A DNA stretch of 64,000 nt from Rhizophagus irregularis. Taxonomy: Eukaryota. Under the pieces are notes generated by a model that did not search any database, had not been told where the DNA came from, and was given only the letters and a program-made list of their open reading frames with translations. Positions 1-48,069 of this stretch are shown here, piece after piece. A program made the position numbers and the translations under genes. The stretch's first letter is position 1. Every line of letters starts with the position of its first letter. Location: the NCBI RefSeq assembly GCF_026210795.1, contig NC_089435.1:2666001-2730000 (forward strand), given 5' to 3'.

Positions 1-29
1 CTAGGGAATTAAATTCACGACAAATTATT

Positions 30-3079: not shown

Positions 3080-3939
3080 ACATGAGTTCGAAAAGTATAT
3101 TTTTTTCGGATGTTTAGATCATCTTTAGCGTCATCATGCCATCTAGTCCACAATACTTTGGCTTCTTTTTCATAAAAGATAGTTGGCTCTATAGTATTAT
3201 CTATACAGTCAGGATTGATAGAACGGATTCCATCATAATAGGCAATAATTGTTTGGTCTTTAGAATAGATAATATCATCCAATGTCTTGATAGTTTTTTT
3301 AACCGAAGAAAGGACATGTTTAAGATCCTTTATTTCATTTTTAGATCGTGATAGGGATGCTGATAACTTGCCAATCTCCTTATCTTTCACAGCATTAGAT
3401 TTATCCAAAGCACAGATACGAGATTTGTATTGCCTCTCCAAGTCATCTGAGCCGGATTTCTGTTGCTCTTCTAGCTGATGTTTGAATGAATATATTTTCT
3501 GTTTCATATCTACCATACAATTATTATATTCACTCTCCAGACGAGACTTAAGAGCATCATATTCATCTTTTAGATGTTTACGTTCCTCAGCAACCTGGGC
3601 CTCAATAGTTTTCTTAATATTATTCTCCCGTTGCTGTACATGAAGCTCACGTTCCTCTAACTGTTTCTCAAATCCATCTAGCCGAAATAAGGTGGAGGAT
3701 CCCTCTGGGATCGCATTTGCTTCAATCTTAATCTTCTGGCGATTTTTTTTGTTATGGTATCTATTAACCTCCCTAGTAAGCAACTCCTCAATGTCTGGAT
3801 GGATACCCCTAACCTGCTCCTCAGATAATGGTTTATTTTTGCAGTTTGTAAGGCGTAACCATACATCCTTTTTCATGGATGGGGGTAATTGGTCAAGCAA
3901 ACTCTTATAGTGATCATTGAAATGTAGTTGGCTGGCCAT
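3076..3939 (-). CDS. Coiled-coil protein, unknown function; paralog of 5125..5655
   Basis: Long ORF, likely start MASQLHF at 3939; heptad-rich K/E/Q centre. Confidence 0.7.
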   Translation of the reverse strand: MASQLHFNDHYKSLLDQLPPSMKKDVWLRLTNCKNKPLSEEQVRGIHPDIEELLTREVNRYHNKKNRQKIKIEANAIPEGSSTLFRLDGFEKQLEERELHVQQRENNIKKTIEAQVAEERKHLKDEYDALKSRLESEYNNCMVDMKQKIYSFKHQLEEQQKSGSDDLERQYKSRICALDKSNAVKDKEIGKLSASLSRSKNEIKDLKHVLSSVKKTIKTLDDIIYSKDQTIIAYYDGIRSINPDCIDNTIEPTIFYEKEAKVLWTRWHDDAKDDLNIRKKYTFRTHV

Positions 3940-4144
3940 ATGTTTGAATAGGGTAAGTATATAGTCTTGGAAAATTCCCGGAAAAAAAAATATTCCAGGA
4001 AGTCCAGAAATTCCATATTTTCCCAGAAGTTTAGGTATTCCATTTGTTTCCAGCAAAACTTTCCGCCTAAAAAATTAGCCAAAAAATTAGCCAGGCCTAG
4101 ATTCTGGGAAAAAAAATACTAAGAATATTCTCAGAAAATTCCTC

Positions 4145-4918
4145 CTAAACAATTGTGATTTCCGTTCCATCTTCTAATTTTAACACTGGCTGATTAAGAT
4201 GGTTTATGGATGGTAGTAAATTATTTTGTTTAGCATACAGAGACGACATAAATACTTTACTTGTGACCCCTGGCTCTGAACACCTTTGGCTGGGACCCGA
4301 TGAATGATAAGAAGTTGGTGAAATACAAGTTGGCTCGAAATTTGGAGCACTTGACATAGTATTTTTTGCTATGGTTGCGGTCTTAGCCTTAAAACAAGAG
4401 TAATTCCAATGATTCTTCATCAAATCTTCAGACTCAACTTCATAGGCCCATCTGCCCCAACCACTATAATATACTTTTCTAGGCTCTACTTCGGTAATCT
4501 TCACCAATTTCCAGCATTTGAAACAAATAGCCATCTGACTTTTATGGACACTAGGTCTACGATATCTGAAATGATCTTCAAATAACTCACCATTAACATA
4601 GAATGTTTTGGATTTTAATTGACCAAATGAAGCGAAAAGGCAGTACACATGGTATACACTATATTCTCGCTTAGAAAGTAGTTCTTGCAGAGAACCTCTT
4701 ATACGATCAGCCCATTGCTGGGGTGTTTCATGAGGTCTAATAATAGATAAATAATCATATTGTTTTTCTATTTCAACCACTTTTTCATACCGATATTCAT
4801 CAGTTTGAGGACCATTAAAAACATGTTCCATATCATATCCGGGGCGGAGATTGATAGGTTTAGGCACAGTTTTATTATAAATCTTATCTAATATGATCTT
4901 AACCATAGCACCGGGCAT
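4145..4918 (-). CDS. Hypothetical protein with possible Zn-binding motif
   Basis: 257-aa ORF with ATG start; ICFKCW...HWNYSC. Confidence 0.6.
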   Translation of the reverse strand: MPGAMVKIILDKIYNKTVPKPINLRPGYDMEHVFNGPQTDEYRYEKVVEIEKQYDYLSIIRPHETPQQWADRIRGSLQELLSKREYSVYHVYCLFASFGQLKSKTFYVNGELFEDHFRYRRPSVHKSQMAICFKCWKLVKITEVEPRKVYYSGWGRWAYEVESEDLMKNHWNYSCFKAKTATIAKNTMSSAPNFEPTCISPTSYHSSGPSQRCSEPGVTSKVFMSSLYAKQNNLLPSINHLNQPVLKLEDGTEITIV

Positions 4919-5124
4919 AGCTACGCTAGTATAACTATTTATTAGTAAATTAGTGATTTATAGCAATTTCAGAGTTTTATGGTATTTTTAATGAATTCTG
5001 ACGATTCTTTAGCAACTTATTCTTTAGAATATCGTCATTCATTTTTTGTACTACATGAGATCAGTTTTAGCTCCATAACACCATCATAGCGCTAACATGG
5101 AACCAAGAATCATGGGATGATCGG

Positions 5125-5655
5125 CTAATTATTTTCCGACGATTTCATAAAAGCAAGGGCTTTTTCTATCCCCTGCACCTGCGCCTTTATTTCAATAATT
5201 TCATAGCGCAGTTGACTATTAGCCTTAATTCGTTCCTCATGTTCCCTAGACAGATTTTGCATAAATCGGCCAAAGGTTTCTTTATTATATTTAAGCATTT
5301 GCTTTTGCAGGACATTAACCCGGCTATTAATTTCCGCCTCATGATCACATACAATATTACCTGTTTGTGTTCCATTGTCTGTGACGTAAGAAATAGGCAA
5401 TGGTAAGGGTGCCGGGCATTCAGGCCAACTTTGGGGGCGTAATTTTTTCCGATCCATAGTTTTACGATTCCGGTCTAATGATTTCTGGTAAATCTCTAAT
5501 GTATGGAGCAAATAATCCTCTATACGCTTATTTTTCTCTGAAATCTGGTTTAGAGGAATGGGTTTGCGCGAATGATTTAGGAGCCTTTGATACGCCCTAT
5601 CTCTTATGCTTACTGGGAGTTTATCAGTAATATGATTATATTCAGTATGGAACAT
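5125..5655 (-). CDS. Coiled-coil protein, unknown function; paralog of 3076..3939
   Basis: Likely start MFHTEY at 5655; N-terminal ~65 aa align by eye with the 3076..3939 product. Confidence 0.65.
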   Translation of the reverse strand: MFHTEYNHITDKLPVSIRDRAYQRLLNHSRKPIPLNQISEKNKRIEDYLLHTLEIYQKSLDRNRKTMDRKKLRPQSWPECPAPLPLPISYVTDNGTQTGNIVCDHEAEINSRVNVLQKQMLKYNKETFGRFMQNLSREHEERIKANSQLRYEIIEIKAQVQGIEKALAFMKSSENN

Positions 5656-5900
5656 TTTATTAGATATAGTTTTGCGCAAAAATCTTGCATGCAAAAATTT
5701 ATTATTTAAAAATAACATTCGGAGCTTTATTAAAATTTTTAGATAGATAGATAGATGCCTTCCGGCTAAGAAATATAAAAAAAAAAATGGGTAGGAAGAT
5801 AGCAGATGAAATAAATGATGCACAAAGAGTCATAAACACTCTAAGAGGGAGGGAGTAGTACTCGGATCCTAGGCCATAAAATGAGAGTCCCAGCATCAAT

Positions 5901-6227
5901 TTATTTCGCACTACTACCCCCATTGAAGATGGTACCGTTATTACTTCTATTACTACTGCTACTGCTACTATCGCTAAAACTAACTACTTTCTTATTTCCC
6001 TCCTTTTCAACCCATGCAATAATTTTATCCATAGAAGTTGTTCTTGGAGATTTTTGGTGACGGTAAAAACTAGCTAAAGTACTAGCACTAAGACCAGTTT
6101 CGATTGATAAAATATTGTACAATTGCGTTGGAGAACGTCCTTCCTTTTTCCTCCTGTTATTAAAAAGAGCCGTAAACTCGACCCAGTATGTTTCATATTC
6201 ATCCGTATATTCAGAACATTGTCCCAT
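5901..6227 (-). CDS. Small XRE/Cro-like helix-turn-helix protein
   Basis: PTQLYNILSIETGLSASTLASFYRHQKSPRTTSMDKIIAWV fits the HTH_XRE pattern; likely start MGQCSEY at 6227. Confidence 0.6.
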   Translation of the reverse strand: MGQCSEYTDEYETYWVEFTALFNNRRKKEGRSPTQLYNILSIETGLSASTLASFYRHQKSPRTTSMDKIIAWVEKEGNKKVVSFSDSSSSSSNRSNNGTIFNGGSSAK

Positions 6228-6316
6228 GAAAACGTGACTTGTGGAAGAGAATCGGTTCGATCCAGCTAGATAAAAAATAAGGCGCAGTCGGCGCAGGTAA
6301 GTATTATGCATATCGG

Positions 6317-6625
6317 TTAATTCTTTTTCCTATCACATGTCATACCTTGGGACGAAGCATCATTTCGCCATTCAGCTTCTGTACGTATTCTTTGGAGCTC
6401 ATTGCTTAAAGTTAGGAGGGTTCTTTCAAGGTTATTGTTTTTATCTTGCATCCCCATTAGATATTTACGAGAAAGGAAGATAGCGATGGCAAGGATTATG
6501 TAAATGCTTGTATTTCCCGAAAGAATTCCCTGGATCATGTCCATAGTTAGGACATCATGGCTTATCATCTCGAAAATAATAACTACGATGCTGAAAACAG
6601 CAAACAAAAAAATATCTGAGAACAT
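6317..6625 (-). CDS. Small membrane protein with two hydrophobic helices and a coiled-coil tail
   Basis: IFLFAVFSIVVIIF and IYIILAIAIFL, then NLERTLLTLSNELQRIRTE; likely start at 6625. Confidence 0.55.
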   Translation of the reverse strand: MFSDIFLFAVFSIVVIIFEMISHDVLTMDMIQGILSGNTSIYIILAIAIFLSRKYLMGMQDKNNNLERTLLTLSNELQRIRTEAEWRNDASSQGMTCDRKKN

Positions 6626-7839
6626 TGTTTTAGTTTGTTTTAGATTGATTTTTGATATATGCAAAATTATTCTTGTTGGAGGAAAAGAAATACCAAAGCG
6701 CTTCTCTAGAAATATCCCTTTTATATGTTTTACAATCGCCAGGCAAAATTAAATGCCCATATATACTAGCATAGAGAATCCGCATCGAAATATGGATCTG
6801 GAATAATCGTGAAATGTTGTCATAATTTTACCTGATCCCTTTAAGATCCCCCTATTTCTGAAAAAAGAAAATTATCAAGATCCTCTCCGGCGTCTGTACC
6901 TAAAGACGAAAAAAGTTAGTGCATTCCCGTACCCCCATATCCCCACAACATGTTTCAAACAATAACGATAATAATATTTTTCGTAAATGCTTGGCCGTGA
7001 GACCTTACGCAAGAGAAGATTTTTATTAATAAAAATTTATTGAGATATTCGTTAGGTAGCTTTACTATTATGTATGTACAGTATGTGAATAAGCTATATT
7101 ATGCATAGCGCTTCGGCTAAAGTACTATTCTCTTATTACATTTTTATCTAAAGAAAGACCAAAGGAAGTACTAAATAACTATCTAGATTTTTTTTTTCTT
7201 GCTTCGAATTTAAGAATATAGGACTTCTTTTCCTTCGTGGCGCAGTTCGATATAAAAAACCTTCATTATCATAGGTAAATGCAGATCAAAACATGAAATC
7301 TGTTGTAAGGAAATAGGCGGGTATTTATAAAAAATTTCAGATTTCCGCAGGCAGTTCCGCATGAATATTTTTGCGAAAAATTAGCCATTCTAGGATAAAA
7401 TTATCGGGAGCAATGGCGTAACTTCACCCCCCTATTTTCAGGAGACGCATGTGTTTAGCCCCTTTGATCGCTTATCTTTGGGCGTAGATATCCGATCTAC
7501 GAAAAATCGAATCATTTTATAATCAGGATCTTCATAAAAAATAGGGGGGAAGTTGTATACTAAAACTTTCTGCAGATTCACATGAGCCGGTTGACGTATT
7601 ACTGCGGAGAAGTATAGATGACGTTTTACTGCGCATGATATCTAAGCCACCCACATGATTTTGGCGAATATATATCTTTAAATGATAATTTATCTTCGAG
7701 ATTCAGGACCTCTATATTATAACTAATACACTGTACATTGCTATTCAATTTTTTTTTATTACATGCGAAAAATAAATACAAGATCGGGATATTACCCATG
7801 ATACATGACGTCTAGGCTAATATACATGTAAATAGGCGA

Positions 7840-8921
7840 TTATTTTTTCGTTCGATATCCCTCTACCCTCACCCTCTTCCTATCAGGTTCTTCCTCCGCA
7901 CATGCCCTATCCTTTATTATCCCTACCACCACACTTAAAACCTTTTTCACGCCATTACACAGCGTTTGATATTCCACGGACTTTTTATCCAAAGCATCTT
8001 CGGAAAATTCGATGCTTAACGGAAGTTTGCTTCCTTGAGAAATTCTTCCAGGGGTATAGAGCAGGAAGTGCCAGTCTCGAGCTGTTGTCACTATACCATA
8101 TAGATAATCGTAGTCATCCCCATCGCCCCGCTTTCTCTTCTTCTTGTTCGTTTCGTACGAACTCTCGAGCTGTTTGATATTCTGAGCGAAGCCTTCGATT
8201 ACATTCCGCTGTGGTTTGTCCTCCGTAATGCAAATAAGGTTCTCGACATCCTGACCGGAGGAAGAATAAAGTATGGCGTTAGTATGGCTTATATATCATA
8301 TAAAAAAAAGTGCGGACATGCATCACTCACCTTGATCGCATAATCAACCCGCCCAGAGCTTTCTTCACCTATTACTTCATATTCAGGCCTCATACTTAAT
8401 TCTTTCCCTGTGTCATCCCTGGTTATATTTATAGCGGAATGAAGAATGGCCACAACGTACTCATTGCGCATGGCTTCCAAGCTATCCACAACCAAAGTTC
8501 CGTAATTTTTCAGCCTGACTAATATTTCCGCCATACATTGCTTGAAGTGCTCGTTAGTATCCTCTATCTCATATGACTGCAGTGAAAAAAGCGGGATAGT
8601 GTCTGTACCGTTGCCATCAATACCGTATTTCGCTAACACCTCACTCAAACTCTTGTACGAGGAGAACGCACGCTTCGGCTTTTCTTTGAGGGCCTTGGCC
8701 TCTTTTGCGAGAAGTGTTGCTGGTCCTATCTTCAAACCACACTCCTTAAAATCGTCCTTGGTCATGTCGAGAAAGGAAAGGCCGGTAATTTTTTCGTTGC
8801 GGAGTATTCCCAAGTCATCGTCATCGAGCTTGAGGTTCTGCTCTTTCAAAAAATCGATAAGGGTTTCTGTATCCCAGTTCTCAACTAAGTAAGAGTCGTG
8901 TTCAGCTGTTGAGGTAGACAT
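7840..8921 (-). CDS. SAM-domain plus PD-(D/E)xK (REase-like) nuclease protein, Crinkler-associated type; exons 8921-8331 and 8250-7840, 333 aa
   Basis: SAM-like VENWDTETLIDFL...ITGLSFL...GLKIGPA; nuclease-like GRVDYAIK...ICITEDK...GFAQ...LYGIVTTARDWHFL; intron GTGAGT..CTAAC..CAG keeps frame. Confidence 0.8.
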
Positions 8922-9207
8922 AGCGTTACGTTTTTATAGGGATATTTGGCTCGGACAAAAATAGTGTTACGTTCCGGAGTAGGATAAAAATTTATTTATG
9001 TTCGGGAATACTGGGCGTTAATATAGGTTTTTATGTCGCACAGGCATTACATCATCACACGTGACCGTTTCTCATATACGTTCGATAAAATAATACTTTA
9101 TTTATGAAATAAAAACATTGCCGGAAGGGTCCCAGAGGGACCAAGTCGGCCTACAATACATAAAAATGCGACTATATCGCTATTACATGATGTGAATAAA
9201 AAAATTC

Positions 9208-9660
9208 CTAACTATCTTTGCTTAGTACCTCCGGCACCCTTTCAGCGGGAGGGTACACGATAACATTAATTCCCATTTCACCATCAAAGATACGTTGGGG
9301 TTGTATAGGAAAATGAGTAAAAATTGTGTCTTGCGGTTCCATTCTTATTGCACCTTCTACTTCAAATTCACTGATGTTTCTTAAGCTGTTGATTATGACA
9401 CTATCAGCTATAAATGCGACCCTATATAAAGCCAAATTGGTCGAATCTATATATTGAAATCGATCTGGACGACGGGTTTTGACTGCCTCCGCGAGAGAAG
9501 AGACTCTATTGTTGTTAGCGTTAGATATCGTTACTTCGAAAATATCGTTCACTCCCTCATCAGAAATGAGACAGTTGAGAGTAATATCCCCACCAGCGAG
9601 AAACTTGTCAAGCTTGTCAGGAGTCTTGTTCTTATCAGATTCCTTGGTCTTATCAGACAT
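9208..9660 (-). CDS. Crinkler (CRN) N-terminal ubiquitin-like domain protein; upstream exons possible
   Basis: ITLNCLI...FEVTI...VSSLAEAVK...FQYIDSTNLALYRV...INVIVYPP matches the CRN-N layout (LxLFLAK-like and HVLVxxP-like motifs). Confidence 0.75.
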   Translation of the reverse strand: MSDKTKESDKNKTPDKLDKFLAGGDITLNCLISDEGVNDIFEVTISNANNNRVSSLAEAVKTRRPDRFQYIDSTNLALYRVAFIADSVIINSLRNISEFEVEGAIRMEPQDTIFTHFPIQPQRIFDGEMGINVIVYPPAERVPEVLSKDS

Positions 9661-10214
9661 CTTGCTTTCCTAAATACAAGACCCATGGTGAGAAAAACTC
9701 GCTCCCGTACATTCATAACTTCTGACATATACATACCTTAATTTTTTTTCGCAGGGATGTTGGGTGAACTTCCACATGCCCTTACATGCTTTATATCTTG
9801 CTGGGAAAAAGTTAGGGAGGTATGAGGCGTGATTAGCATTGTCGTATGATGCCAAGAGCTCTATGAAAGCACATGTAAACGGAATCCTCATACCTTTTCA
9901 CATGTAGATCTACCGAAGAGATACATAGTTGGTCTTACGCCTGGCGATCTCGAAATTGCAAGTCCCTCAGCCTTTCATAACATATGCTTTTGCCGTCAGT
10001 ATTTACTTTTAGAGTAGGTCCTGTGTTGCAACTAGACCTCCCTTCACATTTTCTCTCATTTGTTTGGGGAAAAAATAGAGGAACTGGTTAGTATATAACT
10101 TCGATATGTGAAAATTAATATGTCGCACAAGACCTGACTGATGATCCACTTATTTTGTCGCACAATCTGGTCGAAGGCGCAGTGCATGGCTCAGCAATTC
10201 TTCCGAGCTGATGA

Positions 10215-10430
10215 TCATTTCTCCGGACTAGCATTAATCGAACTGCTTGGGGAAATTGGGATCGGAATTTTACTCACATCGCTTTTAAACAATTTTACCA
10301 TGTTTTCTAGCGCCTCTAATTTTTTCTCGAATACTTTGGTTAGCTCCTCCGGATCGCTAGGTAATTTATTGGATAAATCTTTTTCACTTGGTCCCTCTGG
10401 GATCCTTTCGGCTTGGCGCTCGCTTTCCAT
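10215..10430 (-). CDS. Small hypothetical coiled-coil protein
   Basis: 71-aa ATG ORF co-oriented with neighbours; amphipathic LTKVFEKKLEALENMVKLF. Confidence 0.35.
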   Translation of the reverse strand: MESERQAERIPEGPSEKDLSNKLPSDPEELTKVFEKKLEALENMVKLFKSDVSKIPIPISPSSSINASPEK

Positions 10431-10506
10431 TTCTACCTTCTACTGCGGAAATTAGTCTAATTATTGAGAAAAAAAATATGCAATAATTAGTTGATTATGC
10501 TCCGGA

Positions 10507-10902
10507 CTATTTTGATCGTACTGCTCGGGCTGGATTCCTTCTAGGTTTCGCCTTCTTATTGCCGGATTTTTTCTTCACACACTTTACTTTGCAAATATTC
10601 TTTTCTGAGCTGGTAGGCGCTTCGCATGGCTCATATTCATAATCTGAATCGGATGAATCTGAATCGGATGAAATCTCTTTACCTGGCTCTACACCAGTTT
10701 TCTCTTCTACATAATTTTCTATACATTCTACAGTTGTTTCTAGCTTTTTAATTTGCACAAATAAAGCACCTACGTTATTTTTTAGCCAGTCTGTTAAAAC
10801 CAGTAGCTTGGCACCTTCTTCATCTTCTAAATATGTTTCGCTAGGCATCCTATTGTTTGATAAATGCTTGGTCCTGGAGGTATCATTTCGTCTGACTACC
10901 AT
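10507..10902 (-). CDS. Hypothetical protein with coiled coil, acidic S/D tract and basic tail
   Basis: 131-aa ATG ORF; SSDSDSSDSD and K/R-rich C-terminus. Confidence 0.55.
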   Translation of the reverse strand: MVVRRNDTSRTKHLSNNRMPSETYLEDEEGAKLLVLTDWLKNNVGALFVQIKKLETTVECIENYVEEKTGVEPGKEISSDSDSSDSDYEYEPCEAPTSSEKNICKVKCVKKKSGNKKAKPRRNPARAVRSK

Positions 10903-11074
10903 CTTTTCTATAACTGAATATTTTTTGCCCCAGAAAAAAAAAATATAATATAATAATGTATGCGATCTGACTACTTGTCACTATCTAGCTTATGTGGATG
11001 AGCTGGACATGTAAGACGTATATTCGTTTTGATATTTCTCTGGGAGCTTGGCCCTTATAGCTCTTTTTTCGGCT

Positions 11075-14000
11075 TTAACGGCGGTGTCTTTCATTGCACC
11101 AGAGACAGGTAAGTCTTACATTCTGAAGATAATGACCCTCAGAATCGTCTATCCGATCAATCGAAAATGATTGCGGATGGCGCTTCGGATAGCCTTGGAA
11201 TAAGAGTGGAACATAACATACCTTACAAACTTTCTTTTGCTGATATGCCATAGAAATTATCTCTTCTGGCGTGATTGATGGAATAGCTTTCTCCTCATCA
11301 TTCTCTGCTAGATAGAGCGGATTCTCACATACCGTAGTGTCCTCAATCAAATCAGTCTTATCATCTACCTCCCAATCCTCAGCTATCATAAGCGGTCTTG
11401 GAAAATGTCGCTTCTTTTTCCGATCATCTAGCCTATGGCGTCTTAATTTTGCCTCAATAATTTGGGGACAAGGAGTTGCTTGGAGTTCAGTAGGTTCGAT
11501 ATATTCAAGGACACCGTCTGGTGGTTTAACTCGAATCATTTGATTCATGTATCGTACTCGACTGCAGGCTGTATATACGGCATTGTTAATCCAGCCTTCC
11601 AGGCTATGGTCCACAATGAAACAACGTTTCGGAGGCTCGACAGTCTGTCCTTGGATTCGATGAATTGTTCCCCAGCCGGCATATTTCCACTCAGCAGGAA
11701 GTCCACGCAGTACTATCTCAAGTGGTACATTTATCATCGTACCAACATATGCTTCGATAATTTCATTGCTACCCGGGATCTGCACAGGTTTCCCTTGGAT
11801 ACGATACATATGCTTGATACTTTCATCTGGGTCAAAACGGATAATTGAGGGTACATTGAGGAAGCGTGACTTATGAGCCTGTATTAATGCACTTTCAACT
11901 CGCATACCCATATCATTTGTGGAGCAAATCCAAATATCTTCTGGAGTCCACTCAGTAAGTGCATTCTTCCATGATGTTGTAGGTAAAGCCTCACGGAATT
12001 CTTGCAATTGGGTCATATCATCTTTCATCCACATGCGTAATTTTAATGCCTTAAGTTCGGGATCATAAGCACGATAATCGTCCATGCACCAGATTACTTC
12101 ATCAGCCCACTCGGTAAGAAATTTATGCGGACCTTCTTTATCACCCCATGGTGTAAGTTGACCTGGATCTCCACACATAATACTTTGGCATCCACGACTT
12201 TCGGCATATGACAATAATCTCTGCAATACCTTCTTAGGAATCATGCATGCCTCATCAAAGATAAGTATTTCGGCTAGAGCTTTTTTTCCAAGACATGCAG
12301 GATCCCACTCATCGATAGGTGTTGCCCCTAGATGAAAATACTTATGGTATGTCATAGCCGTTAAGCCTGGATTTTGCTTTCTATGGTATTCTGCAAGCAA
12401 ATTTGCTGGTGTGAGAACTACAACCTTTCGACCAGGGAATGCACGAATGGCTCGTGTTGTTTTCTCGCTACCGCCTTGGCCAACTAGATAAACTTTTTGC
12501 AATGTTATTAGTTTCGAATCAATAGAAAGAGGGGGTGCGTCGCTTGGAGGGATTTCTAGTGTACCTTTATAATTGATAGCCCAGGATGATGCTTCTTTAC
12601 GATAAGTATATCCCTCTTTTTTCTTGCGCCATTGACCATACTTAATTTCTGGTGTTTCTAGAACAATAGCTGATTCATACTGCTTTCTTATTTTATCTAG
12701 TTCAGCCTCATATTTCGCATGCACTTCTTCTAACTCTGCACTATTTTTCGCTTTAGCAAAGAGGCTTTCATCAAAATCGGGGAGTAATTTTTGCCCCATC
12801 TCAACAACAGTTTCATCTAAAATAGTTTCGGAAATTGCTGTGGTGTAAATGGCATCTGTACATACTCGTAGTACATTTTCTATCGGAAAACGTTTTAGCT
12901 GTTCGAGTACAGCAATATGGGTATAGGCAAGGACAAAAGAACGGATATGCAACCATTGCCCACGCTTTTCATCACCTTCATACTTGATTAAAGTTCCTTG
13001 CTCTGTTCGGGTCCAGTTTGGTCGGTGTTTATTTTTGCTAGCCAGTTGACTAACATATCCGCTTCATTTATATCCCGAACTAAAATGGATGTTACTTGCG
13101 CATTACGTGCACAAGAGCCCACGAAGCGAACAGCTAAATCACGATCTGGTGGAAACTCAATACGGGATTTTTTACCTACGCTATATATAACTTCTCTTGG
13201 AGTTGCGCTTGAAAGCCATCCTCTGCTTAGCAAATAATCGACTAAGGGCGTTGGTATCCAACCTTCTTTTTCTGCAAGATGTTGCCCAATAAGTCCTGCT
13301 GTAAATGGATGCAAGTTTAGAGCGAATTCCCATGCTATAAGCTGAACAATACCTGTCAAGTTGCGAATAGTATCTATATTGTCAACTTGAGCACGTCGCT
13401 GTATCCTTTCTGGGAATCCATATCGTCGGACCCAAGGCAATGCTTCTGATGCACTTCGTTCTGAATCTTCACAGCCAAGATACGCTCCACGAAGATCTAT
13501 ATGAATATGCTTGGGGGAGGATCTATTGGTGCATTCCATACCATTGATTCCACCTGTGATTTATGCCAGATCTCTACAACATTTCTAGGCGTAGGCGCAA
13601 TAGCTTCTTTTTCTCGCCAGCAACGGAATCGATAAGACTGGGCGCCTCCTAATGATTTCAAGACTTTATCAAACTCAGCTTTAAGCTCTTCTGAAGGAGA
13701 CGGTGTATTAGATTGATACTCATCTTCAATCCATTGACGAATATCTACATTTTCTCCTCATAAAAGTTCTTCAGGTATGGATTGCGATTTTTCACATATG
13801 AATGCGTCGTTCAGCTTCTTCCATTCATAAGAACTACGATAAAGAATACCTTCATGAGTTAGAATCTCCTTACCTACAATCCATATTCTTGTAGCTCTTG
13901 GAAGGTTTCTTGCGACAAATGATATAAGAGCTTCAGCAATCTTTTTTTCATCGATATTAACCTCCCCCTTCTTAGTTTTCGTGCATGCGGAAACAAGTGC

Positions 14001-15568
14001 TCTTTCACATTCATAGTCCATATCATAGACTGAAGATACTCGAGGCATTTCAGGTATACCTCCTGTCCATGCATGATTATTATGGCAAAATACTGTTAGC
14101 TTACGTTGTTTAAGATACCTACCACTATTCCACATTTCGTTACCTAAAATATCCTTGATGACGATTTTCATCCCTATACCTCCAGATTTTTCCGGCTTTT
14201 CAAGGATATGCAAATCATCTAAAGTACAGCCGGGTGCTCGTACCTTTTCATTAAATTTCGCAAGGGCACTTTCACGAGCTGGCGTTAGCCCTATGGCCCG
14301 CTTTGTTCCTCCATGCTCTATTAGTCGTTGTAATTCTGCTACGATACAATTTAAGTCGCCATCATAAAATGGTCCTGGTGGTCCTTGTGGTCTCGGAACT
14401 GGTCGAAGTTCATAGCAAATATGCTTAACATACTCTCAGGTTTTTAATACTAAAAATTCGTTAATTCCCTTTAGTTGTCCTGGCGTAATTTCTTCTCCAG
14501 TAAGACTTCCGGCTTTCTTTTTCTTACCGAAATGCCATCCTTTATCTCCCATTTCTTCGACTATACCTTCAGATGTGTAGAGTCTAGTAAAAAGTGTATA
14601 CTCTGTAGAATGATAAAGAAGACGGCAAGCTTCTGATGCCATTTTATAGCTAACTCCGACTAATTCATCACTATGCCACCATACAGTTCCATCTTCATGA
14701 ATTCCTGGACCATATAATTTTTGACGTGGACATGACATGAACTGAAAACGTAATGTATAGGGCAGGCCTTCTAGCTCAAGATTATATGGCTCGTCTTGAT
14801 ACTCATCAAGTTTAATCGCATATGAATCTTTCCAGGATAACCACCCCCTTTTATCTATTAATAGAAGTTCATCCAGGCTGGCTTTCCCATAAAAATGAGC
14901 ACACAATGATGGCCATCCATGAGGATCCATGTGATACTCTTCTTTTCCTTCTGGAACCCATACCTCCTTTATGCCCAAAAAGGCACCAGATTTATCAAGT
15001 TGTATTTGCTCTACCATTCTACCCATTTCCCAATCATTAGCCACCCCAATAACATATTCTTCTTCATCATCCATTAGATCCCGAATTTTCTTAGCATAAT
15101 TATTTGTTATATGTGGTTTATATGCCTCTCTAGCAAGATGCCAGTACTCAAATCCATCTTCATTTTTTACCTTTTTGGGCGCTAACTTTGGAATTCATCT
15201 TGAAAACCACCAAATCGATCCATTCTCATGCCGTTCTGGATTTTCTTTTCCTAGCCACTCCTGCTTGTCTGCCCATTCATCAAATGTAGTGGGAAGTATC
15301 TCTTCTGATTTTTTGGCTTAGAACCCTTTACTGGACCCGCTAGCCAGTCGGCCAATTCATCTATAGATTTGTTTTGCGAAACATCATGCGTTCCATTTCT
15401 TTTTTCCTCAGATACCACCTGAAGTTGTGCGATTTCCTCTTGATACTTAGCAAGCAAATCATTGGAACGTGGGTATGGTATCACGTCTAACGTTACTCCT
15501 TTAAGCTCTGCAAGTTTGGCTCGAATTTCTTTACGAATATTTGCTTGGTTAGCTTGACGAGATGACAT
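11075..15568 (-). pseudogene. Family B DNA polymerase (protein-primed-like, divergent) fused to SF1 helicase and C-terminal HNH-like nuclease; ~1500 codons, disrupted
   Basis: Five track ORFs join through 3 in-frame TGA (15195, 14436, 13758) and 3 homopolymer frameshifts (~15310, ~13515, ~13033). PolB motifs HIDLRGAY, LAVRFVG, HIRSFVLAYTH, VLRVCTDAIY, YGQWR; helicase GQGGSEKT, IFDEA, CGDPGQL, TIHRIQGQT, YTACSR; nuclease CKVC..SIDRID..GH..NV..CLWCN. Confidence 0.85.
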
Positions 15569-15869
15569 CTTATATAGAATATCTTTCACGGTGTAATAAT
15601 ATCCTCAGAAAATTTTTATTCAATTAATTAATTCTCCTCCTGCCTTCATATATGTCGAAGCAGAGTACTATTTATCTTTTTCTGAGCATTACGAAGAAAA
15701 AGGCCACCTACCCCGCCCGACAATTCACTAAATGTGCCTAATGGCGCAGATATGGGTCTAGGTCTACACACTTTGCTTTGCAACATTGGCCAGCAGACAT
15801 TGTTGTCTTGCCGGTTAGAAACATGAGTGATCTTATATGCTTTCACGATTTGCTTTATAGTTTGGTTAC

Positions 15870-16430
15870 ATACTCCGCTTCGCTCCGCAACATTGGCATT
15901 CATATTTGCCTCATATATAGCATACATTAGAATAGGTAGCATATGGGTCGGGGATAATAGCATCCATATTCGCTTCGCCCTAAAGGGCTTTGCTCATATT
16001 CCTGCTATTATCCCCTCCCGTCGAATGCGTATTTATAGGCATCGCCCTAAAGGGCTTTGCCTACTCATACTTATTCTCCTATATCGAACGCGCATTCATC
16101 GTCACTCTGCTCCTCCTCATGCTTGTTCTCTCTTGCTACCTAAGCAGTATGCTATTGGGAGGCAATTTGTATACCATATCTTGCGTACATGCTCCGCTTC
16201 GCTCCGCAAACTGCAAACACTATTTGCCCACTTATTGTATTTACAATTTGCTTACCGCTCCACTTCGTTCCGCATACAGTAAGCTTATTTGCTTTCAAAA
16301 AACCAGTGCTAAATAAAATATCAAATTAGTATTTATACAATTCCAAAGAGTTTAGCTAAGTAAGATTACAAATTAGTATTTCTGAGATTGCGGAGTCTCC
16401 AGCTAGGCAGGAAAACAAATTAGTAATTTT
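15870..16430. repeat. Subterminal repeat region of the large element
   Basis: GCTTCGC at 15877, 15972 and 16196; GCCCTAAAGGGC hairpin twice (~15977, ~16044); CAAATTAGTA at 16322, 16369 and 16416. Confidence 0.7.
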
Positions 16431-21606: not shown

Positions 21607-22690
21607 ATGATTATTCCAATTCGTTGTTTTACTTGTGGAAAAGTATTAGCTAATAAATGGAATCATTATCAAACTATGTTAGAAAGCGAATATTCTGAAA
21701 GGTATTTTTTTTTAAAATTGATTTGATTTTCACACAAATCATTTTTAAATTAATATTATTTCCTTTTATCAAATGTAAAAAGTGCTGCATTAGAAGCTCT
21801 TGGAATAACAAGATATTGTTGTCGTCGTATGCTCATATCTCACGTTGATTTTATTCAAAAAATTTTAACGTTTGCTCGTATGTTAAAATTTATTTATACC
21901 ATATATCTTATTGTCCGGAGCGAAGCGTAAGGACACTATGAAAAAAAAATCGATCACGTGAATTTCTCTGTCCGCCACGTGAACGTCACCCAATGAAATC
22001 TTCCCGTTTCCTAGTTAATAATAATAATTCTTCTAATCAATGATTTCATTTTTATTTACTGTTAAATAGCACAAGTATCAACGGGAATTAGTATTGAATA
22101 TTCTGGGCCTTCTATTTTTAGAAACATTTATAATGAATCGTCTACATCACTTTCATCTTTTAATTCTCCACGATATGAACCTGAAAGTTCTCGTTCCTCT
22201 GATGAGAATCTTTCTAACAGGACTTATAGAATCACACCAGGAAACCTTCTTGATAATGGTTCTCCCAGATATGTTTCAGATGAAAGTTCACCAAGATATT
22301 CCCAAAATGATGATACTTCTCCCAGATATGTTTCAGGTGAAAGTTCACCAAGATATTTCCAAAACGATGATTCTTATCTAAACTCTGGCCAAATTAATCC
22401 CGTATATGGACTTAATTCTGATGATCATTCTCTTAGGTATGTATCGTCTCCAATTCTGGTTCTCCATCTTATCAATTTTGAATCAATTATTTTACGATGT
22501 TTCTTCTATATATGAACCATTTCCCAGTTCTTTGAGACAAGAGCCGAGACAAGAAATTCCTGATTCTCCAACCTATCAATCTGCTTCAGTTGGAGAATAT
22601 GAACAAGAGAATGATTACCTCTCACAAAATTTACCTAAACAAGATCAAGCATATGGTGATGAATCTCCAAGATATTCTCCTGATTATTGA
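21607..22690 (+). CDS. RPB10: RNA polymerase subunit Rpb10 (RPABC5) homolog with long C-terminal SPxY-repeat extension; exons 21607-21701, 21783-21877, 22070-22436, 22528-22690, 239 aa
   Basis: [13 protein letters not shown]...[17 protein letters not shown] is the Rpb10 signature; GT-AG introns give a continuous 720-nt frame. Confidence 0.85.
21906..22014. mobile_element. Tiny Helitron/Helentron-like insert in RPB10 intron 2
   Basis: A|TC...CTAG|T boundaries; hairpin TGTCC-GGAGCGAAGCGTAA-GGACA; more GC-rich than the rest of the intron. Confidence 0.5.
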
Positions 22691-35128: not shown

Positions 35129-37890
35129 ATGGAACAAGTAAGACAATTTAGACGTCATACAACTTCGATTGCAAGAAATTCAAGTTATGAAGCAAATGAA
35201 GTAAGTTATCTAATCATCTTTTCCTTTACATTTTATTATTATCATATTCCTTTATTTACGTCATGCTGCGTCTACTTTCGTAGTTTTATCGTAGTCCCGA
35301 AGTCATAAATCCTATGTTAATTCGACCACGTCGTGCATCAGAACCTGATAGTCAAGCATCACAACCATTCGTTACATCATTATCATCTTCTCTAACACAA
35401 GATTCACCTTTAAATGACGACAATTTTAATAAAAGCCTTGGCGACGTCAATAATAGTCTAAACAACCTCAACATCAATAAATCCATCATCAACAACAACA
35501 ACATCAACATCAACAAAAAACTCAACGTCAACATTAATAATAATGGTAGTGTTAGTACTGGTGGTGCTTCTACAACAACAACATTTGTTAATATTAATTC
35601 TACTACAAATCAAGTTCCTGTAATAAGTCGTAAATTTACTAAATCTACTTTTAGTGGTTTTAGTAGGATAGGCGGTAATGGCGGTAATCATAATCATAAT
35701 CATCATAATCATCAAAATCATCATCAACAACATCAACATCAACAATATAGCAGTAGTAGTAGTAGTTCTAATAATACTATTAGTACAAATAGTAATAATA
35801 CTACCATCTCTTCTTCTTCCATTGATAATAATTATAAATCTGAAATTCCTCCTTATAAAATGTCCTCCTTAAATATTTCAAATAATGATTTAAATACTCA
35901 GAATAATCATCAAACTAAATTAAAGAAATTCTTTACAAAATCAAAAAAAGACAATCCTCAACTATCAAAAGCTCATGAATTGATGGAACAAAAAAATTTT
36001 CATGAATCAATAATATATTATACGAGAGTATTGGATAAACATCCCGGTTCTTATTCTGCAAGATGTGATAGGGCTTACGCTTATCATCAAATGTTTAAAT
36101 GGAATTCTGCTTTACAAGATTTAGGTATTGCAATTCAACGTCATCCTCAAAAACCAAGAGCTTACGCTTTAAGAGGTGAAGTTTATAGATTAATGGAAAA
36201 ATTTGATATGGCCATGATAGATTTATCAAAATCCTTAAAATTACAACAAAATGCTTTCGCTTTTAGGGCTAGAGCTGAAGTTAATTGTTCTTTGGCAAAA
36301 TATGCTGAGGCTATTAGTGATTTTAATTCTGCTTTAAATTTAGAACCAAATAATTCTTATACTTTAACTCGTCGTTCAAAAGTTTATTGTAATTTAAAAT
36401 TATTCCCTGAAGCTTTAGATGATTTAGATAATGTTTTAATGTTGGATCCTAGAAATACTTCTTCCACTTTGGCTAATCGTGGTGAAGTTTATCGTCTTAT
36501 AGGTAGATTTGATATGGCTTTGGCTGATTTAAATAGTGCTTTGGAAAGGGAAGAAAATAATACTTTAGCGTTAGAAAGGAGGGGTGCCCTTTTTAGACAA
36601 ATGGGTAAAAATGTTGAAGCTTTAATGGATTTTGATAATATACTAAAATTGAACCCTAAATCTGTTTTTGGTCATAAGAATCGTGGTGAAATTTATCAAG
36701 CTTTAGGAAATTTAAATGAAGCACTTTATAATTTTGATGAAGCTTTAAAATTAGAAAGGGATAATTTATCTTTACTTAAACATAGAAGTGAAATACATCG
36801 TTTACTTGGAAATTATCAATCCGCTATTAACGATCTTAATCATGCATTAAGTATTGAACCTAATGATGCTTTCTTATTAAGGGGTAGAGGTGAAGTGTAT
36901 CGTTTAATTCAATGTTTTGACTTATCTTTAACAGATTTCGATAAAGCTCTTGAAATAGATCCTGGTAATGCTTTTGCTCTAACAAGTCGTGGTGAAGTTT
37001 ATAGAATGTTAAGAAAAGGTGCCGAAGCTTTAAATGATTTAGATAATGCCATAACTCTTATACCTAATAATTTACTGGCGCGTGAGAGTAGAGGTGCTTT
37101 AAATAGAACATTTCGTAGATATGAAGAAGCTTTACGTGATTTAGATTACGCCTTACAATTAAAACCTTCTAGTGTGTTCGCTTTGGCGAATCGTGGAGCT
37201 ATTTATTATATGTTGAGTAGATATTATGAAGCTCAAATTGATTTGGATAAAGCGTTAGAATATGATCCTAATCACGCTTTTACCTTGGAAACACGTGGCG
37301 CTTTATATAATACTCTTGGAAAATACGATAAAGCTTTATCAGATTTAGATAGAGCGTTATCGATTGAACCTGAAAATAGTTGGGCTTTATGTTATAGAGG
37401 TGAAGTACTATTCACTTTGGAAAAATATGATGAGGCTTTAGAAGATTTAAATAGGGTGTTGGATTTACAACCAAATTGGTGTTATCCACTTTCGGTTCGT
37501 GGTGCATTATATCGTTCCCTTGGATGTTATACAAAAGCATTAGAAGATTTAACAAGTAGTTTACGTAACGCTAAAGATAGAGCGTATAATATTAAATATG
37601 AGAATAAAGCTTTATTAAATCGTGGTAGTGTATATAGGATAATTGGTAAATTTGATGAGGCTTTAATAGATTTTAATAAGGCCTTATTAAGAGATCCTAA
37701 TAATATTTTTGGGTTATGTGAAAGGAGTTATGTTTATTATTCATTAGAAATGTATGATTACGCTTTATTGGATATTAATGTAGTATTGGTTATTGATCCT
37801 CACAATAGTTTTGCTCAAAATCTAAAAAGTAAAGTGGAATTTGCTCAAAACGATAAAAATTTAAATGACGACAATAAAGACAATTTTTAA
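35129..37890 (+). CDS. TPR-repeat protein with N/S/H/Q-rich disordered N-terminus; exons 35129-35200 and 35284-37890
   Basis: About 18 34-aa repeats (RGEVYR..G...AL.D...AL...P); upstream exon MEQVRQ..ANE splices in frame via GTAAGT..TAG. Confidence 0.9.
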
Positions 37891-40343
37891 AATTGCGGAT
37901 ACTTAATACGTGACGGGAAGGTTTTAATGAGATGAACAATTTTTCCGCGAAGGTTAGGAAGAAAGAGTGATTGATGAATTATATAATTTTTTTGTATAAA
38001 GTGTTTTATTATTATTATTATTATTATTTCTTACTGTTATTTTACTATTATGAAAAAAAAAAATTGTACGAAAAATTCGAAAAATTTCGTTTGTAAATTT
38101 ATTTGAAAAAAAAATTTTTTGTATTATTTATTATTTCTTTATTTTCTTTATCATTTTTTTTTATTTTTTTTTTATCCTTTTTTTTTTTGTTTTGTCATAT
38201 AAAAAAATTATACATATTATTTCTTTTTTTTTTTTTTGATTTCTATTATTAGAATTTTTATTTTTATAAAAGAATATACATATAAACTATTTTCTTTAAA
38301 TACATTTTATACAAAAAAAAAAAAAAAAATTAACATTTTTTAAAAATATATATTTTGTATATATACACAAATATTACAACATTTTTTTTTTTATTGATTT
38401 TTACTTGATGTTTTTTAGAAAAAAAAAAAAAGAAAAAAAAACGAGAAAAAATAAAATAAAATGAATTGTTATATATAAAGTACATAAATTCATATTATTT
38501 TTCATTTTTTATTTATATAATTTATCATAATTGATTTTTCGTCGTCTTTAACCGTGTCGTCACTCGTCAGTTGGGCGAGATCAACATTTTTATCGTATCC
38601 TATCAAAAATTAGTAAAAGATACTTTGGTGTAGTGCCACCTCAGGCATGCATACATGATTTACAAGGAAAGATTGTTACATTAGCAGTTAGTTTGTTGAT
38701 TGTAGTGTCGTTGATTCATTTCCACGTGTATTAAAATTCGTGATCGGAATCAATCGGTACGCTTCCTGTCATTCAAGTACAATAGAAGTACAATAGGGCG
38801 TGAGATTGAAATCACAGACAAAGATTTAAGAATATGTACGAGATCTGGAACCTCCTACGTTAACGTCACATATAGAATCAAACTTTTATAGCTCGTAACA
38901 ACCCGGCGGTTGAAGTGTTGAATCACTGATGAACACCAAAAAATCATCACTACAATCAGTACATAACATGTTTTTTAACAGGTTTGTTATCAGTCAATGA
39001 ATCCAATTTAAGGAAATATAATAAGATTAGTATCTTAAAGGATGAAATTAAAAAGTATGGAATGAATGGTCAAGAAAAAGAAAATGGTACGGCATCAGAC
39101 GTACAGTTATCAGACGTACGTAATGTATAATACGCAAATAAACTAATGATTAACACATGTTAATTATTGCCAGTTCGCCACGTACATATTTATGTGTTAA
39201 CTAATTAAAGTGATAATACTATTTTTTATTTTAAACTACTTTTTTAATTCATTCAAGTGATACGATGATAATAATAACACAATATATTAATTATAGTTAG
39301 GACCATTTTAAATGAAATTAATTGATCGTCAATATATTATTAGAATTGTTTGAAACACTTGTGTAATTTCTGGATTGTACCAAGTTATGCAAAAATTATG
39401 TAATTGTACTCGTACCTTAAGCCTTATATATATTTTATTTGTTACACTTTAAAAGAAAATTTTACAATAACGAGTATAAGAAGTATAATATAATTTTTTT
39501 TATTGTATATTCCCTAAAATAAAACTATAGTGTACTGTACATTATTTGACGCATTTAAATAAATACAAAACAATACTTTTAATAATCGACATTTTAAGGA
39601 ATACGTGTTTCTTGATGATGAGTGAGATTCATTTATTAGAATTATCTTGAAAAAGGAATTTTTATTTTTATCTCATACTTATTGTCATCAATATTATTAT
39701 GTTTGTATTTTGTATTATTAAAACTTATCATTTCTTAATTCGCATCTGCGCCATTAAATTATTTACAAAGCTCGATCGTCCTAGTATATAATTTTTCATG
39801 AACTAACCTAAATTCTGGCTAACATATCAATAACAATCATTTCAATCATTTACAAATTTTTATATTTTTCTTAGTAAATGTATAATTTTCTATTTAAAAT
39901 ATTTTTGTAAAAAATCATATAATTCTTTTTGAGACAAGTTTGGTTTTTTGGTAATACAAGCATATGAATTTCTGATTATTGTGTTTCAAAATAACTGTTG
40001 AGTTTTTTTCGTTTTAATTCATTTAATACTATATTGAGTAAATAATAAGTCTCGAAATTTTTAATTTAAAATGGTAAAATAAAAAAAGAAACCAAAAATA
40101 TGTCTTAAAGTGATTTGCATTAAAAGTAATAAATCAATAAAACAAACCTTATATATAAGTAAACTATATACTAGAATTAGAAACGTTGTTTATCCAAATC
40201 TGGTAAAAATTTACTTATTCCTTGTTAATAGAAGCCCATACCATTTTTTAGATTACTTAATATAGTATGATAATGATTAAAAAAATATAAAATATATTTT
40301 CGTTGAAAATAATTTATCTTATAGTTTCAGTGTTTCTTTAAAC

Positions 40344-41975
40344 ATGGTTGACATATGTTTCTATTGTAATTGTCTGACTTGCATTTGCAAATTATTACAA
40401 CCGGATTGGACTAGCGGAAATAAATACATCGACAAGTTTATCAAAGAGGCTCAATTGAAAGTAAACGTAAATTTAGATGAAATTATCATAGAATGGATTC
40501 CTTTTAATGGATTAAGAAATATTAAATATTTAGCTCATGGCGGTTTCAGTACCATTTATAAGGCAATTTGGTTAGATGGATATATAATTTCTAGTGACAA
40601 AAGACATCGTGATCCACTTAATTATGAGGATCATAAAATTGCAAAAGAAAAAGATGTCAAGTCACCACTTAATAAAAATGAAAAAAAGGGAGTTCATGTT
40701 GCATTAAAAAGCTTAAAAAATTCTTCAAATATTAGTGATGATTTCATAAATGAAGTAAGTTTTTTTTTTTTAAAAAAAAAAGCATATGCAGTATTTATTT
40801 TGATAAAATTATTTATTTATATTTAATATTTAGTTGAAAAATCATTTACAATGTATGAATTCAAATGTTTCGTCAGCAGTACGCATATTTGGAATAACCC
40901 AAGATCCAGAAACATCGAATTACATGATAGTAATGGAATTAATAAATGGAGGAAATTTAAGATCTAATTTATTAATAAAAAAATATAATCCATTTGAAAA
41001 ATACTATAATTTAGCGTGTATAGCATATGTACTTCTAAAATTACACAGATGTAATATAATCCATGGTGATTTCCACAGTGGAAATATTCTTATACATTAT
41101 AGCTATAGTCCATGTTATATAAGCGATTTTGGATTAAGTAGACCAGTAAATCAAACTATTAATTCGAATGAAATTTATGGGGTGATTCCTTATATGGCTC
41201 CAGAGGTATTACGTGGGAAATCATATACTAAAGCAGCTGATATTTATTCTTTTGGAATTATTATGTGGGAATTTACATCTGGTATTCCTGCTTTTAGCAA
41301 TAGGCCTCATGATTTTAATCTTTCTTTAGATATTTGTAAAGGTTTGAGACCAGAAATTGTTAAAAGTACATTGCCAGTTTATGCAAGTTTAATGAAGAGG
41401 TGTTGGGATTCTAATCCTAATAAAAGACCAACAGCTGAAGAATTACATCAAATCACTGCTTTTTGGTGTGATTATTTTCCGAAATGTTACGAGAATAAAA
41501 GGAATAAAATTCCTAGTAAGTTAAAAAAAAAAATGAATGACTTTATTGAAAAATTATTATCAATTATAAGATTACTATATTTATTTTAAACCTTTATCTA
41601 CTAGGCAATGAACAAATTACAAAGAATCATCCATTATCTTGTTACACAAGCAGAAAAATCGATTACTCTGCAAAAATAAATGAAATTTTATCTCAGGAAG
41701 AACTAAGCAATAAAATCGTAATAGATGAAGAAAAAGAAATTATCAATGATATAACATCATTAAGTAAAAATTTAGGTAAAAAAAAAAAACATTATACCAA
41801 ATTTTTTAACATCTTTTATTATAATTTTTTCTTATTTTTCAAAAAATTTTAATTTTATACTTTTTTTTAAAAAAAAATTTTCAACTTAGAAAACTTTAGA
41901 ATTCCCGATTTAAAGAAAATTTTAAAAGAGGAAAACTTTAGAATTCCCGATTTAAAGAAAATTTTAAAAGAGTAG
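40344..41975 (+). CDS. TKL-like protein kinase, tandem copy 1 (exons 40344-40754, 40834-41515, 41605-41775, 41890-41975)
   Basis: GGFSTIY, VALK, HGDFHSGN, DFG, YMAPE, DIYSFG; canonical introns. Confidence 0.9.
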
Positions 41976-44192: not shown

Positions 44193-44363
44193 AGAAAATT
44201 TTAAAAGAGTAGACAATTGAGATTATATTGTATTTGTAATTATTTATTATTTTTTTGTACCATTAATTTTTGCAAAAAAAAAATTTTTTTTTTTCTTAAT
44301 TTTTTTGCGAAGAATCAACCGAATCAGGACTAGTGAAAGTTTGGAATTATTTATTCTAGATTA

Positions 44364-47951: not shown

Positions 47952-48069
47952 AAGCCAATCATTTTTATTTAGATGACCTTATATAGATTAATTTGTTTGA
48001 AAATCAACCAACATAAATATAACTTCGTTGGAATTTCATAATTTCAGTGTTTTTTTAAATACTGTATTA

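What the first reader, a model, noticed from the sequence alone, without database searches (positions are those of the whole stretch)
21607..22690. Rpb10 homolog with a ~175-aa tail of Pol II CTD-like SPxY repeats
Seen: after the Rpb10 core the spliced frame continues through a Ser/Asp-rich tail with SPRY x6, SPTY and terminal SPRYSPDY. Known: Rpb10 is normally ~70 aa and highly conserved; Rpb1 CTD heptads (YSPTSPS) read SPSY across repeats, and SP-containing repeats are CDK targets. The core here looks divergent ([20 protein letters not shown]). Inference: a paralog with a phosphorylatable CTD-like tail, possibly part of a specialised RNA polymerase.
Basis: partly seen in the sequence, partly recalled or inferred. 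Interest (0 to 1): 0.72.

Follow-up and report, generated by a model that had tools for sequence, protein, structure and literature searches.

The report
Tailed RNA-polymerase subunit in mycorrhizal fungi
Root-symbiotic fungi of the genera Rhizophagus and Funneliformis carry a second, rarely transcribed copy of the small RNA-polymerase subunit Rpb10 whose annotated protein has a long tail of conserved Ser-Pro-x-Tyr motifs, which likely gives a minority of their polymerases an extra, probably phosphorylation-controlled docking surface.

Summary
A four-exon model (21607-22690) gives a 239-aa protein identical to Rhizophagus irregularis OCT59_027372: a 62-aa Rpb10 core with all four zinc cysteines, then a 177-aa acidic, predicted-disordered tail with 8 SPxY motifs (0.29 expected). 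Introns 1 and 3 appear as joints in contigs of one probable RNA run; the intron-2 joint that links core to tail was not seen. Tailed orthologs are annotated in R. clarus and three Funneliformis species, with cores 91-98% identical and motif residues better conserved than the rest of the tail. R. irregularis has two copies. It is a true paralog: a 99-aa RPB10 found in Glomerales and Diversisporales supplies about 99% of reads at a shared position. 'CTD-like' is only partly right: no heptads, motif spacing 9-10 or longer, no yeast CTD functional unit, no full CDK consensus, no AGO hooks. Nothing here shows a specialised polymerase, and RPB1 is reported single-copy. Best reading: a minor or stage-specific Rpb10 variant that likely adds a phospho-docking tail to some polymerases. 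Not found in ten literature searches. New variant of a known kind.

The parts
21607..21701 (+). Exon 1: Rpb10 residues 1-32, with the CxxC zinc ligands C7 and C10
   Evidence: covered by a spliced contig of X12
21702..21782 (+). Intron 1, 81 nt, GT..AG, 15% GC
   Evidence: joint 'skips 81' in X12
21783..21877 (+). Exon 2: Rpb10 residues 32-64, with C44, C45 and the altered motif HVDFIQK
21878..22069 (+). Intron 2, 192 nt, GT..AG, holds a high-copy repeat at about 21934-22000; links core to tail
   Evidence: model only and database annotation; joint not seen in 8 runs; the Pro64 codon is split by it and aligns with the Pro of other Rpb10 proteins
22070..22436 (+). Exon 3: first 121 aa of the tail, five SPRY motifs
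   Evidence: part covered by an X12 contig, 22134-22284
22260..22375 (+). 57-bp tandem duplication (2 copies, 93% matches) that encodes four of the SPRY motifs
   Evidence: one unit is missing in R. clarus
22437..22527 (+). Intron 3, 91 nt, GT..AG; its donor lies in a degenerate SPRYVS repeat
   Evidence: joint 'skips 91' in X12
22528..22690 (+). Exon 4: end of tail with SPTY and terminal SPRYSPDY, stop TGA
   Evidence: X12 contig 22526-22649

Best explanation
This gene is a conserved, weakly transcribed second RPB10 paralog of Glomeraceae fungi whose zinc-cysteine core likely takes the Rpb10 slot in a minority of nuclear RNA polymerases and thereby would add a predicted-disordered, probably phosphorylated SPxY tail as an extra docking surface. 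Shown: gene structure (introns 1 and 3 by RNA-type contigs), Rpb10 sequence and predicted fold, a separate abundant short paralog, a long stem branch followed by near-stasis of the core, and preferential conservation of the motifs. Inferred: (1) intron 2 is spliced so that core and tail are one protein; (2) the core assembles on the alpha-like dimer as Rpb10 does in yeast; (3) Pol II is the more likely host, because the changes L55F and E57Q fall in the motif recalled as needed for Pol I assembly; (4) proline-directed kinases modify the Ser-Pro sites and readers bind the Tyr-bearing motifs; (5) use is limited to a stage or condition not sampled here. The tail would act beside the Rpb1 CTD, not in place of it, since it lacks the seven-residue tyrosine period.
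For: Model equals annotated P0004. PF01194 98.5 bits, cutoff 26.9. AlphaFold model of the 62-aa core, pLDDT 82.8, matches Rpb10/RpoN chains at Foldseek ranks 1-29; tail pLDDT below 50 on a 12-row alignment. Core identity 61/62 to R. clarus, 36/39, 36/39 and 30/33 to the N-terminally shortened Funneliformis models; SPxY residues identical at 22/25, 20/27, 23/29, 22/30 against 75/121, 38/114, 39/114, 42/117 for other tail residues (Fisher p 0.008 to 1e-5). Tree of 26 cores: tailed-type clade 100/99 on a 0.49 stem with short inner branches, short-type clade 96/94 on a 0.19 stem. Of 14 variable positions among eight 239-aa R. irregularis proteins, 1 lies in the 32 motif residues, 12 elsewhere in the tail, 1 in the core. 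The tail has no Met, so it needs an upstream exon. [quoted passage not shown]
Against: No joint across intron 2 in 8 runs; several R. irregularis annotations end in intron 2 or begin at exon 3, and both Glomus cerebriforme models are short. An acceptor at 22014 would give a 72-aa protein. In three poly(A) runs only 8/618, 7/612 and 6/481 reads at position 21825 lack the short paralog's letter, and 0/520 in a fourth run; the 1-7x coverage of exons 3-4 also spans intron 3 and downstream DNA and shows no splice joint, so it may be unspliced RNA or DNA. The motif-conservation test is partly circular, as motifs anchor the alignment. One G. cerebriforme copy has lost zinc ligands. The short paralog also departs from HVDLIEK (HTDLISK), so the Pol I argument is weak. 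No protein, phosphorylation or binding data.
Confidence: 0.5

Rival explanations
1. The paralog is a spare, functionally ordinary Rpb10, and the tail is a tolerated low-complexity extension whose SPRY motifs come mainly from internal DNA duplication.
For: Four of the six SPRY motifs lie in a recent 57-bp tandem duplication; motif number varies from 4 to 8 between species; 13 of 14 variable positions within R. irregularis are in the tail; expression is near background.
Against: Motifs far from the duplication (first, SPTY, terminal) are kept in Funneliformis while flanks are about 35% identical; the core shows a burst of change then stasis, with F55 and F62 seen in 0 of 52 other rows.
Confidence: 0.17
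2. The protein acts before or against assembly: its core would bind the alpha-like dimer and hold or divert polymerase assembly intermediates, with the tail controlling its stability or location by phosphorylation.
For: Rpb10 is described as seeding the assembly platform, and mutation of its conserved motif depletes Rpa190 (PMC8160253, passages); the tailed core changes this motif and Y62; low transcript level fits a regulator; the tail is Ser/Pro/Asp/Glu-rich with net charge -14.
Against: The zinc ligands and most of the core are intact and strongly conserved; nothing here shows inhibition.
Confidence: 0.13
3. It is one subunit of a dedicated, Pol II-derived polymerase of Glomeraceae with other private subunits, comparable to plant Pol IV/V.
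For: Long stem then constraint is the pattern expected of a re-specialised subunit; plants show that duplicated Pol II subunits can found new polymerases (PMC7714444, abstract start and passages).
Against: RPB1 is described as single-copy and monomorphic in R. irregularis (PMC4183475, passages); the tail has no Trp and so no GW/WG AGO hook; none of the 18 window frames scanned against Pfam is a polymerase subunit. The genome could not be searched.
Confidence: 0.12
4. Core and tail are not one protein: intron 2 is retained or spliced to another acceptor, giving a 72-100 aa Rpb10, and the fused model is an annotation artefact.
For: No intron-2 joint in 8 runs; split annotations P0048, P0050, P0307, P0309, P0310 and short G. 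cerebriforme models; an alternative acceptor gives 72 aa.
Against: Fused models in R. irregularis, R. clarus and three Funneliformis species; the junction reads FAPQ and aligns with YNPQ of the short paralog and YAP of animal Rpb10; the tail is spliced at intron 3 to keep its frame and has no start codon of its own.
Confidence: 0.08

Closest known systems
Rpb10 / RPABC5 / POLR2L / archaeal RpoN (Pfam PF01194)
   Same: Core of 62 aa, four zinc cysteines, about 60-67% identity to eukaryotic Rpb10, same predicted fold.
   Different: Second paralog beside an abundant short one; HVDFIQK for HVDLIEK, F62 for Y62; 177-aa tail with SPxY motifs, found in none of the other 288 Rpb10-core proteins fetched except one protist protein with 2 [ST]PxY.
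Rpb1 C-terminal domain (YSPTSPS heptads)
   Same: Predicted-disordered, Ser/Pro/Tyr-rich, repeated SPxY; SPXY is named as one proposed building block of the heptad (PMC13377220, passage citing Chapman 2008).
   Different: On Rpb10, not Rpb1; no heptads; spacing 9-10 or more; acidic spacers; no yeast functional unit; the seven-residue Tyr period that Mediator binding needs (PMC13377220, abstract and passages) is absent.
Plant Pol IV/Pol V subunit paralogs
   Same: Lineage-specific duplication and divergence of a polymerase subunit with a new disordered C-terminal region.
   Different: There the largest subunits are duplicated and the Pol V tail has WG/GW hooks; here only Rpb10 is shown duplicated and the tail has no Trp.
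Spt5 C-terminal repeats (recalled, not tested)
   Same: Non-heptad [ST]P-plus-aromatic repeats carried on the elongation complex as a second phospho-platform.
   Different: Carried on an elongation factor, not a core subunit; no sequence comparison was run.

Membership tests
Rpb10/RpoN (PF01194) | Profile match above the curated cutoff | tested here: met
   98.5 bits against 26.9, residues 2-59
Rpb10/RpoN (PF01194) | CxxC...CC zinc ligands | tested here: met
   C7, C10, C44, C45 present and invariant in the 59-row alignment
Rpb10/RpoN (PF01194) | Rpb10 helical fold | tested here: met
   Model of P0038 (identical to residues 1-62) pLDDT 82.8; Foldseek ranks 1-29 are Rpb10/RpoN chains, TM about 0.57-0.79; a prediction that leans on known homologs
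Canonical eukaryotic Rpb10 shared by Pol I, II, III | HVDLIEK motif (its role in Pol I assembly recalled from Gadal 1999; cites it only as 'the conserved motif') | tested here: not met
   HVDFIQK here; HVDLIEK in 140 of 177 proteins scored; the short paralog has HTDLISK
Canonical eukaryotic Rpb10 shared by Pol I, II, III | Incorporation into polymerase | not testable with these tools
Pol II CTD | Tandem YSPTSPS heptads on Rpb1 | tested here: not met
   No heptad; one YSP, p=0.26; motif spacing 32, 9, 10, 9, 43, 33, 4
Pol II CTD | Yeast functional unit: three SP pairs within nine residues plus tyrosines seven apart (PMC3646058, passage) | tested here: not met
   At most 2 SP pairs in 9 aa in P0004; 2 of 16 Tyr have a Tyr seven residues on, 0 in R. 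clarus and Funneliformis
Pol II CTD | Disordered, SP- and Tyr-rich low-complexity region | tested here: met
   pLDDT below 50 over the tail on a shallow alignment; 20% Ser, 9 [ST]P, 8 SPxY
Pol II CTD | Phosphorylation by transcription CDKs | not testable with these tools
   Only minimal SP sites; 0 [ST]Px[KR]
Pol V-type specialised polymerase | WG/GW AGO hooks in the tail | tested here: not met
   0 Trp in 6 of 6 tails
Pol V-type specialised polymerase | Dedicated largest-subunit paralogs | not testable with these tools
   No genome held; literature describes RPB1 as single-copy

The most novel reading that the evidence does not exclude
Glomeraceae have built a stage-specific RNA polymerase II variant by subunit exchange: a private Rpb10 carries an independently evolved second 'CTD' of SPxY repeats on the assembly-platform face of the enzyme, read by its own kinases and partners, possibly with further private subunits not yet noticed.
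Probability: 0.2. Interest if true: 0.85.

Novelty: new variant of a known kind. Interest (0 to 1): 0.56.

Why it matters
Rpb10 is among the most invariant proteins of eukaryotes and is normally a single small subunit shared by all nuclear polymerases. Here both Glomeraceae paralogs depart from the consensus at different, otherwise nearly fixed positions, and one has gained a conserved repeat tail. If the tailed form enters polymerases, it is a way to diversify transcription by swapping a common subunit and a natural test of whether SPxY motifs, a proposed CTD building block, work as a docking code away from Rpb1. It is directly testable in yeast.

Tried and rejected
Whole-genome search: no genome held, so other subunit paralogs and a possible third RPB10 could not be counted. 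Run search listed no holder on record as RNA. Metagenome contig scan with the alignment returned 80 of 344 loci, at most 63% identical, none of the tailed type. Viral contig scan with P0004: no relative; a viral origin is also disfavoured by introns and 60-67% identity to cellular Rpb10; the ESM Atlas top hit was a Nucleocytoviricota cluster at 0.86, a lead only. Atlas search with the tail: no usable hit; Pfam: none for the two tail pieces. Earlier scan findings: none in three look-ups. Full-length AlphaFold on a 12-row alignment was poor (mean pLDDT 44). dN/dS not computed: no relative DNA; the 11 coding variants listed (7 table rows were not shown) split 5 synonymous, 6 non-synonymous, too few to use. 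Similarity of intron 3 as a whole to the repeats was not significant (p=0.125). The tail of protist protein P0014 is not significantly similar to this tail. No complex prediction was run: no native partner was available and a textbook pair would pass by likeness. Proteins longer than 419 aa were not searched with the core by the word-index tool.

Full report
Observation. The window is AT-rich fungal DNA. Four exons (21607-21701, 21783-21877, 22070-22436, 22528-22690, + strand, all GT..AG) give 239 aa, the same sequence as P0004, annotated as Rhizophagus irregularis OCT59_027372. Residues 2-59 match PF01194 at 98.5 bits. The 177-aa tail has SPRY six times, SPTY and SPDY: 8 SPxY against 0.29 in shuffles, 0 of 10,000 shuffles reaching it. 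It is 20% Ser with net charge -14, and has pLDDT below 50 in a model from a shallow 12-row alignment. Pfam and the ESM Atlas find nothing for the tail.

Is the gene model real? Eight runs were laid. In contigs of X12 (RNA by the tool's guess) intron 1 (81 nt) and intron 3 (91 nt) appear as GT..AG joints, one contig each, and part of exon 3 is covered. Intron 3 matters, since without it the frame ends at 211 aa. The intron-2 joint, which links core to tail, was seen in none of the eight runs. Indirect support: fused models in five species of two genera; the Pro64 codon is split by this intron and the junction FAPQ aligns with YNPQ in the short paralog and YAP in animal Rpb10; exons 3-4 contain no in-frame Met. 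Against: some R. irregularis annotations stop in intron 2 or start at exon 3, both Glomus cerebriforme models are short, and an acceptor at 22014 would give 72 aa.

A paralog, and the minor one. In four raw-read runs of the same coded species label, hundreds of reads match only 21810-21843; their loose ends, translated by eye, match P0294, a 99-aa RPB10 of Rhizophagus whose 90% cluster also holds Funneliformis, Cetraspora, Dentiscutata and Scutellospora entries. At position 21825 the short paralog's letter is in 610/618, 605/612, 475/481 and 520/520 reads. The tailed gene's own coverage is 1-7x in three poly(A) runs (two of them one sample), spans intron 3 and downstream DNA alike and shows no splice joint, so in those samples it is at or near background. 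A third, fully canonical RPB10 cannot be excluded, because no genome was held and only 120 of 413 short hits were listed.

Distribution and constraint. Tailed proteins: R. irregularis (two loci in one strain's annotation, OCT59_027372 and OCT59_024230, 96% identical), R. clarus, Funneliformis mosseae, F. caledonium, F. geosporum; the same core type in R. diaphanus and G. cerebriforme, where one of two copies has lost zinc ligands. All 33 hits of 131-419 aa were listed and none was named from outside Glomeraceae with this core; the profile search of 1.84 billion representatives gave 5 hits at E<=1e-30, four of this family and one tandem-core artefact. Of 302 Rpb10-core proteins fetched, 14 have two or more [ST]PxY after the core: 13 of this family and one protist protein whose tail is not significantly similar. 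In a tree of 26 cores (no other fungi included, rows picked by me from the hits) the tailed type is one clade (100/99) on a 0.49 stem with short inner branches, the short type another (96/94) on a 0.19 stem; their sister relation is weak (59/84). Core identity is 61/62 to R. clarus and 36/39, 36/39, 30/33 to the shortened Funneliformis models. SPxY residues are identical at 73-88% of aligned positions against 33-62% for the rest of the tail (p 0.008 to 1e-5), a test that is partly circular because motifs anchor the alignment. Against 52 other rows, mostly of unnamed origin and chosen as nearest to the tailed core, the tailed form has F55 and F62 (0 of 52 each) and Q57 (1 of 52); the short form has S9, T53, S57 (0 of 52 each). 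So both paralogs have left the consensus, at different places.

How CTD-like? SPXY is named as a proposed building block of the heptad (PMC13377220; abstract, outline and passages read). The same paper reports that Mediator pockets match a seven-residue Tyr period and that octamer repeats clash. The yeast functional unit is three SP pairs in nine residues plus Tyr seven apart (PMC3646058, passages). The tail fails both: spacing 32, 9, 10, 9, 43, 33, 4; at most two SP in nine residues; one YSP at chance level; no [ST]Px[KR]. It may work like an auxiliary proline-directed phospho-tail, but it is not a CTD. It has no WG/GW hooks of the Pol V kind (PMC7714444, passages), and RPB1 is described as single-copy in R. 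irregularis (PMC4183475, passages).

Mechanism. Most likely (0.5): the core, which keeps the zinc ligands and the predicted Rpb10 fold, replaces the short Rpb10 in a minority of polymerases, in a stage or condition not sampled, and displays the SPxY tail as a phospho-regulated docking surface. Yeast Rpb10 bridges the alpha-like dimer and the second-largest subunit, and mutating its conserved motif depletes the largest Pol I subunit (PMC8160253, passages; that the motif is HVDLIEK is recalled from Gadal 1999, which I did not see). That points weakly to Pol II as host, weakly because the short paralog also alters the motif. Incorporation, phosphorylation and partners are inferred. Rivals: spare subunit with a tolerated tail (0.17), assembly regulator (0.13), dedicated Pol IV/V-like polymerase (0.12), core and tail not joined (0.08).

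Novelty. Ten searches of the held library listed no paper on this gene: six accessions gave 0 papers, and none of the 22 papers listed holds 'Rhizophagus'. Subscription journals are largely missing, and I read no supplements; expression tables in supplements of R. irregularis transcriptome papers may bear on stage specificity. PMC13082827 and PMC12716044 were read as passages only and added nothing specific. Databases label the protein RPABC5 or uncharacterised. Verdict: a real, apparently undescribed variant of a known subunit; interest 0.56, held down by the unseen intron-2 joint, very low expression and no sign yet of partner subunits.

Noticed in passing
window 22428-22445 and 22437-22527: The donor of intron 3 lies in a degenerate copy of the SPRYVS repeat (it reads SLRYVS through the donor), and the intron is 32% GC like the exons, against 15% for intron 1. 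It may be intronised repeat-coding DNA; whole-intron similarity to the repeats was not significant (p=0.125).
   Followed up: partly
window 21934-22000: A short, very high-copy repeat sits inside intron 2 (hundreds of contigs and many loose ends); probably a small mobile element, and a likely cause of split annotations.
   Followed up: no
P0294 cluster (not in window): The abundant short RPB10 is itself unusual: HTDLISK motif and a conserved C-terminal extension of about 35 aa shared by Glomerales and Diversisporales entries.
   Followed up: partly
P0014 (marine protist transcriptome entry, not in window): A 240-aa Rpb10 with canonical core and a Ser/Gly/Thr/Pro-rich tail with TPxY motifs; possibly an independent gain of a similar tail.
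   Followed up: partly
P0051 (Glomus cerebriforme, not in window): One of two tailed-type cores has altered zinc-motif residues and looks like a decaying copy.
   Followed up: no
window 1-16000: GC 35-42% against 23-34% elsewhere, with long intron-poor frames, one with an AAA_30 helicase-like domain (11078-13063, minus) and one with a SAM domain (8292-8933, minus); probably one or more mobile elements.
   Followed up: no
window 35284-55286: A TPR-repeat protein (35284-37887), a tandem run of protein-kinase genes (about 40281-48832) and a kinase-Sel1 gene (about 52420-55286, minus).
   Followed up: no
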